Shown here: positions 35,007-43,168 of the stretch, piece after piece
Layout of the letters: each line of letters starts with the position of its first letter
How positions within the stretch are numbered: the stretch's first letter is position 1
Source of the DNA: Escherichia phage tunus
DNA: 51,111 nt
Sequence record: NC_049816.1
Reading direction: 5' to 3' (one strand)
The notes under the pieces: model-generated
Told to the model about the DNA's origin: nothing
The model's input: only the letters and a program-made list of their open reading frames with translations
The model's database searches: none
Program-made: the position numbers and the translations under genes

Positions 35007-35048
35007 TTAATATGGCGGCGTTTTGCCGCCTTTTAAATGAGGTGGAAA

Positions 35049-35165
35049 ATGATAGATAAGGCTATTGATTTCTTTTTTTATTCGATTATTGGCGCGGTTG
35101 GCTTTTTGGTTACTGCTGCTGGCCTGGCTATTATCTTGGCTGTTATTAAGGGGATTATGCGATGA
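35049..35165 (+). CDS. Small hydrophobic peptide (38 aa, single transmembrane helix)
   Basis: ATG at 35049 with RBS GAGGTGG; ATGA overlap with next gene; below track cut-off. Confidence 0.3.
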   Translation: MIDKAIDFFFYSIIGAVGFLVTAAGLAIILAVIKGIMR

Positions 35166-35386
35166 GTCAAGACGGATTTTTTGAGCGCCTTCAAATGGCA
35201 GAAGATGCCGGACTAAATAAAGAGGCGGCGCTTGAAGTGGCATATAAAATTAAGACTCTTGATGAGGCTTTAGGTGATATGGATATGGATCTTGAATCAA
35301 GCGCAATATTTGCAGATCCCACTATGATTGTTAATGATTGTGGATGCGATTTCGATCCTGGTTGTCCGCGCTGTTTTCCGTTTTGA
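35162..35386 (+). CDS. Acidic protein with C-terminal Cys4 zinc-ribbon-like motif
   Basis: 74 aa, Asp/Glu-rich; C-terminal CGCDFDPGCPRC. Confidence 0.45.
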   Translation: MSQDGFFERLQMAEDAGLNKEAALEVAYKIKTLDEALGDMDMDLESSAIFADPTMIVNDCGCDFDPGCPRCFPF

Positions 35387-35396
35387 GGTAATGACG

Positions 35397-36107
35397 ATGT
35401 ATAAAGGTTTAATATTCTCCCTATTTGATGGATCTGGTAAAGCCGTTAAAGATTGGGCTGATAATGGCTATAAGTGCATTTGCTTTAATGCTGACGGCGG
35501 CGATCACGGTGATTACCAGTCAGTGCGCATACAGCATGAGAATATCGAATACGTTAACGTCTGGATTGATGATGCTTTTTATGTTAAGGCAATCAATAAT
35601 GAGTGGGGCAATCCTGATTTTATTATGGCCTTCCCACCATGCACCGACCTTGCAAATAGCGGATCTCGCCATTGGGCTAAAAAGCGCCTTAAAAATCCAT
35701 CTTTCCAGGATGAGGCCGCCGACACTTGCAGAATCGCGGCTGATATAGCTGATTATTTCGGTGTTCCATACATGATCGAAAATCCGGTTGGCAAGTTGTC
35801 AACGTTATGGCGAAAGCCTGATTATACGTTCCATCCGTGCGATTACGCTAGCTATCTGCCGGAAGATGATAAACATCCCGACTTCCCTGATATTATTCCG
35901 GCGCGGGATCGCTATTTTAAGAAAACATGCCTCTGGACTGGCAACGGCTTTGTTATTCCTCCACGCGCTTTAATCCTGCCGAAAGAGAAAGACAAAGATA
36001 ATCCAGGCTGGGCCAAAACTGGCGGCAATTCATCGCGCACAAAGATGATCCGCTCCCTCACTCCGCGCGGCTTTGCTCGCGCCGTCTTTGAGTCAAACTC
36101 AAAATAG
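35397..36107 (+). CDS. DNA cytosine-C5 methyltransferase-like protein (short, core motifs only)
   Basis: ATG at 35397 with RBS GAGGT; motif I-like FSLFDGSG, motif IV-like FPPC, motif VI-like ENPVGKL in canonical order and spacing; no obvious target-recognition domain. Confidence 0.55.
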   Translation: MYKGLIFSLFDGSGKAVKDWADNGYKCICFNADGGDHGDYQSVRIQHENIEYVNVWIDDAFYVKAINNEWGNPDFIMAFPPCTDLANSGSRHWAKKRLKNPSFQDEAADTCRIAADIADYFGVPYMIENPVGKLSTLWRKPDYTFHPCDYASYLPEDDKHPDFPDIIPARDRYFKKTCLWTGNGFVIPPRALILPKEKDKDNPGWAKTGGNSSRTKMIRSLTPRGFARAVFESNSK

Positions 36108-36147
36108 CACTTTTTGTTAAAAGCCAGGTGTAAAAACCTGGCATAAT
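36102..36147 (+). promoter_or_regulatory. Phage promoter module (box + 19-bp hairpin spacer + CATAAT)
   Basis: Exact box; spacer palindrome CCAGGtgtaaaaaCCTGG. Confidence 0.5.
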
Positions 36148-36176
36148 CACATCAAACAAACAAAGGAGATCTGATC

Positions 36177-42442: not shown

Positions 42443-43168
42443 TTAACTCCGTTTGCGTGCTCGGCGTTCGGTAACAGAAGGACAAATATCGCTGATCTTA
42501 ACGTATCGCGTTTTCTGCTCTTCGCCTTCTTTAAGTTTACGCATGACAAAAATCACGCTCCCCTTATTGTTGCCCTGTACAGGCTCGCCAGTCAATCCAG
42601 ACACAAAGGCGATTCTTCCGGTGCGGGAATATTCCACTCCCCCCTCTTCGTAAACCTCGCCAGTGATCCAGATGATTTCAGCCGCGTTTTTCTGCGCCTC
42701 ATAAAACCATGCTGTAGAGTTGTCGGATGGCAACAAAACATCAATTTGGTTGTTGTGCTCCATTTGCTCAATTGCTTTCTTGATAAATGGAGTTGGGTTG
42801 CTGTACGGCGGGTTAAGCCATACGTGCTTGTTGCTACCCCACCAACGCTTTAAGCAGTTTGTTTCCTTGCTATAGAACTTCTCGCAAACTGCGTTTTCCT
42901 GGCTTGCTGCCGCGTCGAGATCGTATTCGCCAAATTCTGATTCCATCCACTCCACGATCTCTTGAGGTGTGCTCCACATATCGCGCACAACGTCCGGCGT
43001 AGTGCTTCCAGCGTATCGGTTGCCGCTTACCTTATAATATTGATTTGGCTTTACTGCCTGGTAATGGCCTCCAGTTGCAAGGGCATTCCCTATAAATGTT
43101 TCTCTCTCCAACTGCTCAAAGCTAACGAATGCGTCATGGGTGTCTTTATCTAAAATATCTTTAGCCAT
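42443..43168 (-). CDS. dam: DNA N6-adenine methyltransferase (phage Dam-like)
   Basis: 241 aa, RBS GGAGAAA; motifs DLDAAAS and NPPYS. Confidence 0.75.
   Translation of the reverse strand: MAKDILDKDTHDAFVSFEQLERETFIGNALATGGHYQAVKPNQYYKVSGNRYAGSTTPDVVRDMWSTPQEIVEWMESEFGEYDLDAAASQENAVCEKFYSKETNCLKRWWGSNKHVWLNPPYSNPTPFIKKAIEQMEHNNQIDVLLPSDNSTAWFYEAQKNAAEIIWITGEVYEEGGVEYSRTGRIAFVSGLTGEPVQGNNKGSVIFVMRKLKEGEEQKTRYVKISDICPSVTERRARKRS

What the first reader, a model, noticed from the sequence alone, without database searches (positions are those of the whole stretch)
35162..36107. Minimal m5C-methyltransferase-like protein preceded by an acidic zinc-ribbon protein
The 35397..36107 ORF has motif I-like FSLFDGSG, motif IV-like FPPC and motif VI-like ENPVGKL in canonical order and spacing, but at about 236 aa it is too short for a normal target-recognition domain. 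Together with the Dam-like enzyme at 42443..43168 the phage would carry two DNA-methylation functions, consistent with anti-restriction. The short enzyme could be noncanonical.
Basis: partly seen in the sequence, partly recalled or inferred. Interest (0 to 1): 0.55.

Follow-up and report, generated by a model that had tools for sequence, protein, structure and literature searches.

The report
Compact phage Dcm-like cytosine methyltransferase
The ORF is a real but already known short DNA cytosine-C5 methyltransferase of T1-like coliphages, whose 89%-identical counterpart in a related phage has been shown to make 5-methylcytosine and to trigger the bacterial retron Ec86 defence; the small acidic four-cysteine protein in front of it is still uncharacterised.

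The parts
35014..35030 (+). Terminator-like GC-rich hairpin followed by TTTT. It marks the upstream boundary of the small-gene cassette.
   Evidence: Consensus scan found GGCGGCGTTTTGCCGCC followed by TTTTAAATGA. This is a pattern match only.
35037..35165 (+). 42-aa hydrophobic (single transmembrane-like) peptide gene. Its TGA stop overlaps the ATG of the next gene (ATGA).
   Evidence: ORF list and sequence. pI 9.99 with a hydrophobic core. 58% identical over 31 aa to bas06_0057, which sits at the same position in phage KarlJaspers.
35162..35386 (+). 74-aa acidic protein with three predicted N-terminal helices and a C-terminal invariant Cys4 cluster (C60-x-C62-x5-C68-x2-C71-F-P-F). Function unknown.
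   Evidence: phrog_9323 (unknown function) at E 3.8e-37; no Pfam or NCBIfam hit. pI 4.05. All four Cys are invariant in 12 homologues down to 42% identity, and also in the 32%-identical AAS23 gp53. Found in 448 phage records; every one of the 40 listed with a determinable taxonomy is a Drexlerviridae-type phage. In all six loci inspected it lies directly upstream of the methyltransferase or one ORF away. The AF2 model is weak (pLDDT 68, pTM 0.37) and shows helices 4-15, 20-27 and 33-37 with no strands.
35385..35388 (+). GAGG Shine-Dalgarno of the methyltransferase gene. It overlaps the TGA stop of the 74-aa gene, which suggests translational coupling.
   Evidence: Sequence. The same arrangement is present in KarlJaspers. 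In phage K42, two retron-escape mutants carry a single base change 9 bp upstream of the dcm start codon. That position falls in this GAGG in the KarlJaspers sequence. The mapping is my inference.
35397..36107 (+). Compact (236 aa) SAM-dependent DNA cytosine-C5 methyltransferase, known as 'Dcm-like' or PHROG 757. Motif I is F10-D-G-S-G14. The catalytic Cys is C82 (motif IV, PPC). Motif VI is E128-N-P. K175/K176 precede strand beta-7. The recognition region is reduced to about 30 residues (roughly 183-212).
   Evidence: 89% identity with no gaps to bas06_0055. Experimental data on the phage K42 orthologue.
36122..36141 (+). Conserved intergenic hairpin GCCAGGT-GTAAAA-ACCTGGC directly after the methyltransferase stop codon. 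Its stem holds two CCWGG sites. It lies between TTGTTA and CATAAT hexamers.
   Evidence: Nearly identical in swan01 and KarlJaspers. RNA fold gives -15.3 kcal/mol, z = -3.8. In other Drexlerviridae genera the same position holds a different hairpin, CCCGC..GCGGG, mostly followed by a T-run, so the structure is conserved but the CCWGG sites are not.
42443..43168 (-). Dam-type N6-adenine DNA methyltransferase, the phage's second methyltransferase.
   Evidence: TIGR01712 at E 1.9e-53 and 180 bits, against a cut-off of 97. Annotated dam in swan01 and 'Dam-like' in KarlJaspers.

Best explanation
ORF 35397..36107 encodes an active, orphan (no cognate nuclease) SAM-dependent DNA cytosine-C5 methyltransferase. 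It belongs to the compact 'Dcm-like' family that is widespread in enterobacterial phages.

Mechanism, inferred from the family chemistry and from the orthologue's mutant:
- The Rossmann-like core binds SAM through the F-D-G-S-G loop.
- The target cytosine is flipped out.
- Cys82 of the P-P-C loop attacks C6, and Glu128 of E-N-P protonates N3.
- The methyl group is transferred to C5.
- K175/K176, next to strand beta-7, take the place of the usual motif VIII arginines.

The enzyme has no large target-recognition domain. It has only short loops, about residues 183-212 plus an insertion at 146-176. This resembles the DNMT3 catalytic domain, which is its best structural match.

The most likely target is the inner C of CCWGG, as for host Dcm. 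That would pre-empt EcoRII-type restriction and stay invisible to McrBC, but the specificity is inferred, not shown.

The same activity is a liability. By methylating retron Ec86 (Eco1) msDNA it switches on that abortive-infection system, so this phage is predicted to be Ec86-sensitive.

The gene is the last of a translationally coupled trio: a 42-aa membrane peptide, a 74-aa acidic Cys4 protein, and the methyltransferase. The Cys4 protein is not needed for methyltransferase activity.
For: Family and fold:
- phrog_757 'DNA methyltransferase' at E 5.7e-84.
- The AF2 model is confident (pLDDT 86.5, pTM 0.86). Only the catalytic loop, residues 86-89, is disordered.
- The only recurrent Pfam signal across 79 divergent relatives is PF00145.
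- C82 and E128 are invariant in those 79 relatives.

Orthology to a studied enzyme:
- 89% identity, 236 of 236 residues aligned without gaps, same synteny, to KarlJaspers bas06_0055, annotated 'Dcm-like C5 cytosine methyltransferase'.
- The K42 enzyme comes from a phage whose genome is reported as 95.4% identical to KarlJaspers. Its gene has the same 711-bp length and the same residue numbers.
- K42 Dcm triggers retron Ec86 and raises 5mC on msDNA by LC-MS. The C82A/E128A/K175A/K176A mutant does neither. All four escape phages have lesions in or just upstream of dcm. The published version is cited.

Specificity:
- AAS23 gp52 is 60% identical. After restriction analysis with a panel that included EcoRII, the authors report its virion DNA as Dam- and Dcm-methylated.
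- The window has 135 CCWGG sites against 53-80 expected from lower-order composition, so there is no avoidance. Other palindromes are depleted.
- These phages plate on K-12, which carries McrBC, McrA and Mrr. That argues for a Dcm-compatible motif (established knowledge plus host fields).

Independence from the 74-aa protein:
- The K42 enzyme works when expressed alone from pBAD.
- The methyltransferase occurs in 1497 phage records against 448 for the small protein.
Against: - No Pfam or NCBIfam model matches, even at E <= 1.
- Sequence-only searches of PDB give only E 0.24-0.8 to DNMT3B and M.HaeIII. A broader profile loses even those hits.
- hhalign against E. coli Dcm aligns only 25 columns around motif IV, at 1.3% probability. 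The enzyme is therefore not an orthologue of host Dcm, and its CCWGG specificity cannot be inherited by homology.
- CCWGG specificity in the retron study was assumed from E. coli Dcm and tested only by mutating the msDNA site. Those experiments were done in dcm+ MG1655, where host Dcm did not activate the retron. That leaves room for a different or broader specificity.
- EcoRII resistance of AAS23 DNA could be due to the host's own methylase.
- BASEL found no simple correlation between methyltransferase genes and restriction resistance.
- Nothing was measured on this particular phage.
Confidence: 0.88

Rival explanations
1. It is an active C5 DNA methyltransferase, but its specificity is not CCWGG. 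With such a small recognition region it may read a shorter or degenerate motif, or prefer hairpin or single-stranded DNA such as msDNA and replication intermediates.
For: - The recognition region is only about 30 residues, and the best structural match is DNMT3, which reads just CpG.
- There is no detectable homology to the recognition domain of E. coli Dcm.
- Host Dcm in MG1655 did not methylate msDNA or trigger the retron, whereas the phage enzyme did.
- The segment equivalent to the recognition loop comes in at least two sequence types across the family, D-N-P-G-W-A-K and G-Y-S-x-Q-H-x-K. This suggests that specificities differ between members.
Against: - Mutating either C of the msDNA CCTGG abolished defence.
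- DNA of a phage with a 60%-identical, same-loop-type enzyme is reported Dcm-methylated after restriction analysis that included EcoRII.
- A promiscuous RmC-generating activity would expose the phage to McrBC in its K-12 hosts (established knowledge).
- CCWGG is abundant in the genome.
Confidence: 0.25
2. It transfers a group other than methyl, for example carboxymethyl from carboxy-SAM made by host CmoA, giving a hypermodified cytosine.
Confidence: 0.03
3. It is an RNA (tRNA) m5C methyltransferase of the Dnmt2 type, or a catalytically inert DNMT3L-like regulator, rather than a DNA methyltransferase.
Against: Dnmt2 scores lower than the DNA enzymes. The catalytic Cys and Glu are invariant. The orthologue methylates the DNA part of msDNA, and its active-site mutant is inactive.
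Confidence: 0.03
4. The 74-aa acidic Cys4 protein is a functional partner of the methyltransferase (a regulator, specificity factor or stabiliser), or an independent DNA-mimic anti-restriction protein. On this reading the pair forms one anti-restriction module.
For: - The gene pair is adjacent in six Drexlerviridae genera (Warwick-, Hanriver-, Weber-, Ecluna-, Vilnius- and Sauletekiovirus) while the small protein diverges to 32% identity.
- Its stop codon overlaps the methyltransferase Shine-Dalgarno.
- It is strongly acidic, pI 4.05.
- The four Cys are invariant.
Against: - The methyltransferase works alone.
- The methyltransferase occurs in many phage groups without the small protein: 1497 against 448 records.
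- Synteny within one virus family can be simple vertical inheritance.
- The small protein has no family or structural match.
- No interaction was tested.
Confidence: 0.15

Closest known systems
Dcm-like C5 cytosine methyltransferase of Drexlerviridae phages (KarlJaspers bas06_0055; phage K42 Dcm, Wang et al. 2024 Cell Rep 43:114857 and bioRxiv 10.1101/2023.08.16.553469); PHROG 757
   Same: 89% identical over all 236 residues with no gaps. Same 711-bp gene and same neighbours: the 74-aa gene upstream, and a 128-aa ORF, a 73-aa ORF and the helicase downstream. Same catalytic residue numbers C82, E128, K175 and K176.
   Different: 27 substitutions, none in the conserved motifs. The window phage is a Warwickvirus and KarlJaspers is a Hanrivervirus. 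No experiment has been done on this allele.
DNMT3A/DNMT3B catalytic domain (eukaryotic de novo C5 DNA methyltransferases)
   Different: Only 16-18% identity. The phage protein has no PWWP or ADD domains and no DNMT3L partner. It is about 50 residues shorter than the DNMT3 catalytic domain. Whether it oligomerises is unknown.
E. coli Dcm / M.EcoRII (CCWGG-specific, PF00145)
   Same: Same chemistry, and the specificity presumed from the literature is the same.
   Different: 472 aa against 236 aa. Profile alignment covers only 25 columns around the PC motif at 1.3% probability. PF00145 does not detect the window protein. There is no adjacent vsr gene. The name 'Dcm' is an analogy, not orthology.
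Classical bacterial type II m5C methyltransferases (M.HhaI, M.HaeIII)
   Different: The recognition domain of about 80-100 residues between motifs VIII and IX is replaced by about 30 residues. The Q-x-R-x-R and G-N motifs are not recognisable in the sequence. There is no partner endonuclease.

Membership tests
Cytosine-C5 DNA methyltransferase superfamily (PF00145 type) | Motif I SAM-binding loop F-x-G-x-G after strand beta-1 | tested here: met
   F10-D-G-S-G14 follows predicted strand 5-9. It is invariant in 23 close homologues. The wider family has F-D-x-T-G.
Cytosine-C5 DNA methyltransferase superfamily (PF00145 type) | Motif IV Pro-Cys catalytic dipeptide after strand beta-4 | tested here: met
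   P81-C82 follows strand 75-78. C82 is invariant in 79 divergent representatives. It aligns to the DNMT3B SPC motif.
Cytosine-C5 DNA methyltransferase superfamily (PF00145 type) | Motif VI E-N-V | tested here: met
   E128-N129-P130 sits at the end of strand 125-129. E128 is invariant, and N129 and P130 are at least 90% conserved.
Cytosine-C5 DNA methyltransferase superfamily (PF00145 type) | Motif VIII Q-x-R-x-R and motif X G-N | tested here: inconclusive
   These strings are absent. The equivalent positions carry D171-x-Y173-x-K175-K176-T177 before strand 177-182, and T222-P223-R224-G225 before the last helix. I could not superpose coordinates residue by residue.
Cytosine-C5 DNA methyltransferase superfamily (PF00145 type) | Sizeable target-recognition domain between motifs VIII and IX | tested here: not met
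   Only about 30 residues (183-212), mostly loop, lie between strand beta-7 and the C-terminal helices. The whole family is 210-260 aa long.
Cytosine-C5 DNA methyltransferase superfamily (PF00145 type) | Match to the Pfam PF00145 model above its gathering score | tested here: not met
   No hit at E <= 1 for the window protein. Only 5 of 79 relatives give sub-threshold hits, best E 0.0039. NCBIfam gives nothing either.
Cytosine-C5 DNA methyltransferase superfamily (PF00145 type) | C5-methyltransferase three-dimensional fold | tested here: met
   [not shown]
Cytosine-C5 DNA methyltransferase superfamily (PF00145 type) | Formation of 5-methylcytosine in DNA | not testable with these tools
   Shown for the phage K42 orthologue by LC-MS, with an inactive active-site mutant as control. 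Not measured for this phage.
PHROG 757 / Drexlerviridae 'Dcm-like' methyltransferases | Full-length profile match and orthologous synteny | tested here: met
   E 5.7e-84 over residues 2-235. 89% identity to bas06_0055, with conserved flanking genes.
E. coli Dcm / M.EcoRII orthologues | Homology extending through the CCWGG recognition domain | tested here: not met
   hhalign of the family profile against E. coli K-12 Dcm aligns 25 columns around motif IV at 1.3% probability.
E. coli Dcm / M.EcoRII orthologues | Methylation of the inner cytosine of CCWGG | not testable with these tools
   The evidence is indirect and from the literature. The msDNA CCTGG site is needed for retron triggering. DNA of a phage with a 60%-identical enzyme is reported Dcm-methylated. 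CCWGG is not avoided in the window.
Zinc-ribbon proteins (for the 74-aa ORF) | Two Cys-x2-Cys (or His) knuckles carried on beta-hairpins, or a match to a zinc-ribbon family model | tested here: not met
   The pattern is C-x-C-x5-C-x2-C within 12 residues. There is no Pfam or NCBIfam hit. The AF2 model has no strands and is weak, pLDDT 68. Metal binding by the invariant Cys4 cluster remains plausible but untested.

The most novel reading that the evidence does not exclude
The 236-aa enzyme may not copy host Dcm specificity. It could read its target with a minimal loop set, possibly as an oligomer like DNMT3 or with help from the conserved, translationally coupled acidic Cys4 protein. Its true motif or substrate preference (hairpin or single-stranded DNA) may differ from CCWGG. 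In that case the cassette of membrane peptide, Cys4 protein and methyltransferase would be a distinct anti-defence module of Drexlerviridae.
Probability: 0.15. Interest if true: 0.5.

Novelty: already known. Interest (0 to 1): 0.17.

Why it matters
The gene predicts two phenotypes for this phage. Its DNA should carry 5mC as well as Dam 6mA, which matters for restriction-based typing, nanopore basecalling and host-range engineering. The phage should also be sensitive to retron Ec86/Eco1, which is present in E. coli BL21. More generally, about 3% of deposited phage genomes carry this compact enzyme (1497 of 50,697 records), yet Pfam and NCBIfam do not detect it, and many records label it 'hypothetical protein'. 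How a C5-methyltransferase of about 230 residues selects its site, and what the conserved upstream Cys4 protein does, remain open but modest questions.

Tried and rejected
- Pfam and NCBIfam scans of both ORFs gave nothing.
- phmmer and profile searches of PDB sequences gave only marginal DNMT3B and M.HaeIII hits, E 0.24-0.8. A broader 79-sequence profile lost them altogether.
- hhalign of the family profile against single-sequence E. coli Dcm was uninformative at 1.3% probability. A proper PF00145 profile was not available to me.
- The afdb50 fold library was unavailable.
- The published Cell Reports paper is not held, so I relied on its preprint.
- I considered that homologues in T4-like phages might imply a non-DNA target, because hydroxymethyl-C genomes cannot be C5-methylated. 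The example inspected is a Krischvirus of the RB49 group. From memory, that group uses unmodified cytosine, so I dropped the argument.
- I considered that the CCWGG-containing hairpin after the gene might be a methylation-sensing regulatory site. In other genera the hairpin is conserved but has no CCWGG and looks like a terminator, so I do not claim this.
- Literature searches for a direct methylome of a Drexlerviridae phage found none.

Full report
**What the window is.** The 4-kb stretch around the finding is 98-99% identical to Escherichia phages tunus, XY3 and swan01. These are Drexlerviridae, Tempevirinae, genus Warwickvirus. The window length of 51,111 bp matches their complete genomes. 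In those records the ORF in question is already annotated 'dcm', 'DNA-cytosine methylase' or 'DNA methyltransferase'.

**Checking the observation.** ORF 35397..36107 (+, 711 bp, 236 aa) and ORF 35162..35386 (+, 74 aa) are present as described.
- The three motif strings occur at residues 7-14 (FSLFDGSG), 79-82 (FPPC) and 128-134 (ENPVGKL).
- They are not chance matches. D11-G14, P81-C82 and E128-N-P130 are invariant in 23 homologues. C82 and E128 remain invariant in 79 cluster representatives that share only 33-58% identity with the window protein.
- The 74-aa product is acidic, with pI 4.05 and 16 D/E against 5 K/R, and has four cysteines.
- The Dam gene lies at the stated coordinates but on the minus strand.
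- ATG 35397 is the real start of the methyltransferase. A GAGG sequence lies 9-12 nt upstream and overlaps the TGA of the 74-aa gene. Homologues begin at this Met. BASEL annotates a 711-bp gene. The 257-259-aa versions in some records start inside the upstream gene.

**What the 236-aa protein is.**
- Curated libraries miss it. There is no Pfam or NCBIfam hit even at E <= 1.
- Sequence searches of PDB give only marginal hits, although all of them are C5-methyltransferases: DNMT3B at E 0.24 and M.HaeIII at E 0.8.
- PHROGs places it in phrog_757 'DNA methyltransferase' at E 5.7e-84.
- The family is large and uniformly short. There are 2980 clusters at 90% identity, and 2038 representatives at 50% identity, mostly 210-260 aa, with no precomputed Pfam domain among the 120 listed.
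- Among 79 divergent members, the only recurrent Pfam signal is a sub-threshold PF00145 match in five of them.
- An AlphaFold2 model is confident (pLDDT 86.5, pTM 0.86). Only residues 86-89 are disordered, where C5-methyltransferases have their mobile catalytic loop.
- The top 35 Foldseek hits are all DNMT3A/B.
- In the model, the strand and helix order places FDGSG after beta-1, PPC after beta-4 and ENP at the end of beta-5. K175/K176 sit just before beta-7.
- Only about 30 mostly loop residues (183-212) separate beta-7 from the C-terminal helices. Classical enzymes have a recognition domain of 80-100 residues there.

**It is already characterised.**
- The KarlJaspers (Bas06) gene bas06_0055, annotated 'Dcm-like C5 cytosine methyltransferase', is also 711 bp. 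Its product is 89% identical to the window protein with no gaps. The neighbouring genes are the same.
- Wang et al. worked with phage K42, whose genome is 95.4% identical to KarlJaspers (bioRxiv 10.1101/2023.08.16.553469; published as Cell Rep 2024, 43:114857, cited).
- All four escapers from retron Ec86 had lesions in or just upstream of this 711-bp gene.
- Expressing the gene alone is toxic only in Ec86+ cells.
- It raises 5mC on msDNA as measured by LC-MS.
- A C82A/E128A/K175A/K176A mutant is inactive. Those residue numbers are exactly the invariant positions in my alignments.
[quoted passage not shown] In the KarlJaspers sequence this falls in the GAGG Shine-Dalgarno (my mapping).
- Pantoea phage AAS23 gp52 is 60% identical to the window protein. 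It was assigned by HHpred to C5-methyltransferases at 99.7% probability. After restriction analysis with a panel that included EcoRII, the authors report its virion DNA as Dam- and Dcm-methylated.
- By tblastn the family is present in 1497 of 50,697 phage records. These include Drexlerviridae, Dhillonvirus, Kagunavirus, Vequintavirinae, RB49-like Krischvirus and phi92-like phages.

**How it most likely works.** What is shown is the fold, the conserved catalytic residues, and an orthologue that makes 5mC in DNA and depends on those residues.

What is inferred is the standard C5 mechanism. Cys82 attacks C6 of a flipped cytosine, Glu128 protonates N3, and the methyl group passes from SAM bound at the FDGSG loop.

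Target choice is the weak point.
- The retron paper assumed CCWGG by analogy with E. coli Dcm. It showed only that changing either C of the msDNA CCTGG abolishes defence.
- That work was done in dcm+ MG1655, where host Dcm neither methylated msDNA appreciably nor triggered the retron.
- The family profile shows no homology to E. coli Dcm beyond the PC motif. The specificity therefore cannot be transferred by homology.

Indirect support for CCWGG comes from three observations.
- AAS23 DNA, from a phage with a 60%-identical enzyme, is reported Dcm-methylated.
- CCWGG is not avoided in the window: 135 sites against 53 (first-order) or 80 (second-order) expected. By contrast RCCGGY (2 against 33-40), CCSGG (6 against 21-46) and GGWCC are depleted.
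- These phages grow on K-12, which has McrBC, McrA and Mrr. A Dcm-like pattern escapes these enzymes, but many other 5mC patterns would not (established knowledge).

I put about 0.9 on 'active DNA C5-methyltransferase' and about 0.65 on 'CCWGG'.

**Biological role.** Self-methylation against EcoRII-type nucleases is the intuitive role, but it is unproven. BASEL found no simple relation between Drexlerviridae methyltransferase genes and restriction resistance, although no CCWGG enzyme was in their panel as far as I know. The documented consequence runs the other way: the enzyme betrays the phage to retron Ec86.

**The upstream genes.**
- A terminator-like hairpin at 35014-35030 is followed by three tightly packed genes.
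- The first is a 42-aa hydrophobic peptide gene (35037-35165), conserved in KarlJaspers. Its stop overlaps the next start as ATGA.
- The second is the 74-aa gene. The third is the methyltransferase.
- The 74-aa protein matches only PHROGs of unknown function.
- Homologues occur in 448 phage records; every one of the 40 listed with a determinable taxonomy is Drexlerviridae-like. In all six loci inspected (six genera, identity down to 32%) the gene lies directly upstream of the methyltransferase or one ORF away.
- Its four cysteines are invariant (C-x-C-x5-C-x2-C, followed by F/I/V-P-F). So is an N-terminal A-G-L-N...A-L-G-x-M-D helical segment.
- A metal-binding Cys4 knuckle is plausible. 'Zinc ribbon' is not supported: no family model matches, and the weak AF2 model (pLDDT 68) shows three helices and no beta-hairpins.
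- It is not required for methyltransferase activity. The methyltransferase occurs widely without it.
- A role as partner or regulator, or as an acidic DNA mimic, is speculation. I give it about 0.15.

**Verdict.** However, the gene is an annotated and experimentally studied member of a known phage family. The residual novelty is small: the basis of specificity for a near-minimal C5-methyltransferase, the gap in Pfam and NCBIfam coverage, and the unknown Cys4 protein. Interest is low.

Noticed in passing
whole window (1-51111): Oligonucleotide biases. CCWGG (135 observed against 53-80 expected) and GATC (315 against 188 under a first-order model) are abundant. RCCGGY (2 against 33-40), CCSGG (6 against 21-46), GGWCC (15 against 42) and CTAG (38 against 66-109) are depleted. 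This pattern fits protection of Dam and Dcm sites by methylation together with avoidance of other restriction sites.
   Followed up: partly
window 36108-36150, and the equivalent spacer in L004, L001, L005-L008: A conserved element lies right after the methyltransferase stop: TAGCAC-TTTTTGTTAAA, a hairpin, then a -10-like hexamer. The hairpin sequence differs between genera but the pairing is kept (GCCAGGT/ACCTGGC here; CCCGC/GCGGG elsewhere, mostly followed by a T-run). It is probably a terminator overlapping the next promoter. Only the Warwickvirus and Hanrivervirus version carries two CCWGG sites in the stem.
   Followed up: partly
window 35037-35165: A 42-aa hydrophobic peptide gene is translationally coupled (ATGA) to the 74-aa gene and is conserved in KarlJaspers as bas06_0057. 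Function unknown.
   Followed up: partly
GenBank records of relatives: Annotation is inconsistent. The methyltransferase is given a 774-bp ORF starting inside the upstream gene in swan01. It is called 'hypothetical protein' in several records (for example EC195, ityhuna, G3B1). In some records the only label over the 74-aa ORF is 'putative cytosine DNA methylase' (for example U136B), or an unrelated name such as 'translocation/assembly module TamB' appears there.
   Followed up: no
phage database hits: Fifteen to thirty-nine records named 'Campylobacter phage' with host C. jejuni (A139, A16a, A134 and others) carry this T1-like region at high identity. This suggests coliphage contaminants or mis-assigned hosts.
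   Followed up: no
P0246, P0255; BFVD A0A6J5SE15: The compact C5-methyltransferase domain also occurs fused to other modules. One fusion is to a D12-class N6-adenine methyltransferase (563 aa). Another is to an HNH nuclease (348 aa). It also sits inside a 1397-aa phage protein annotated Helicase/UvrB N-terminal.
   Followed up: no
window protein residues 196-207 (alignment A1 columns ~205-220): The segment at the recognition-loop position comes in two clearly different sequence types within the family: D-N-P-G-W-A-K (window, KarlJaspers, AAS23) and G-Y-S-x-Q-H-x-K. This may reflect different target specificities.
   Followed up: no
window protein residue N31: The motif II acidic residue that normally contacts the SAM ribose is Asp in over 90% of the wider family. 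In the Drexlerviridae subgroup, including this protein, it is an invariant Asn.
   Followed up: no
[not shown]
   Followed up: no
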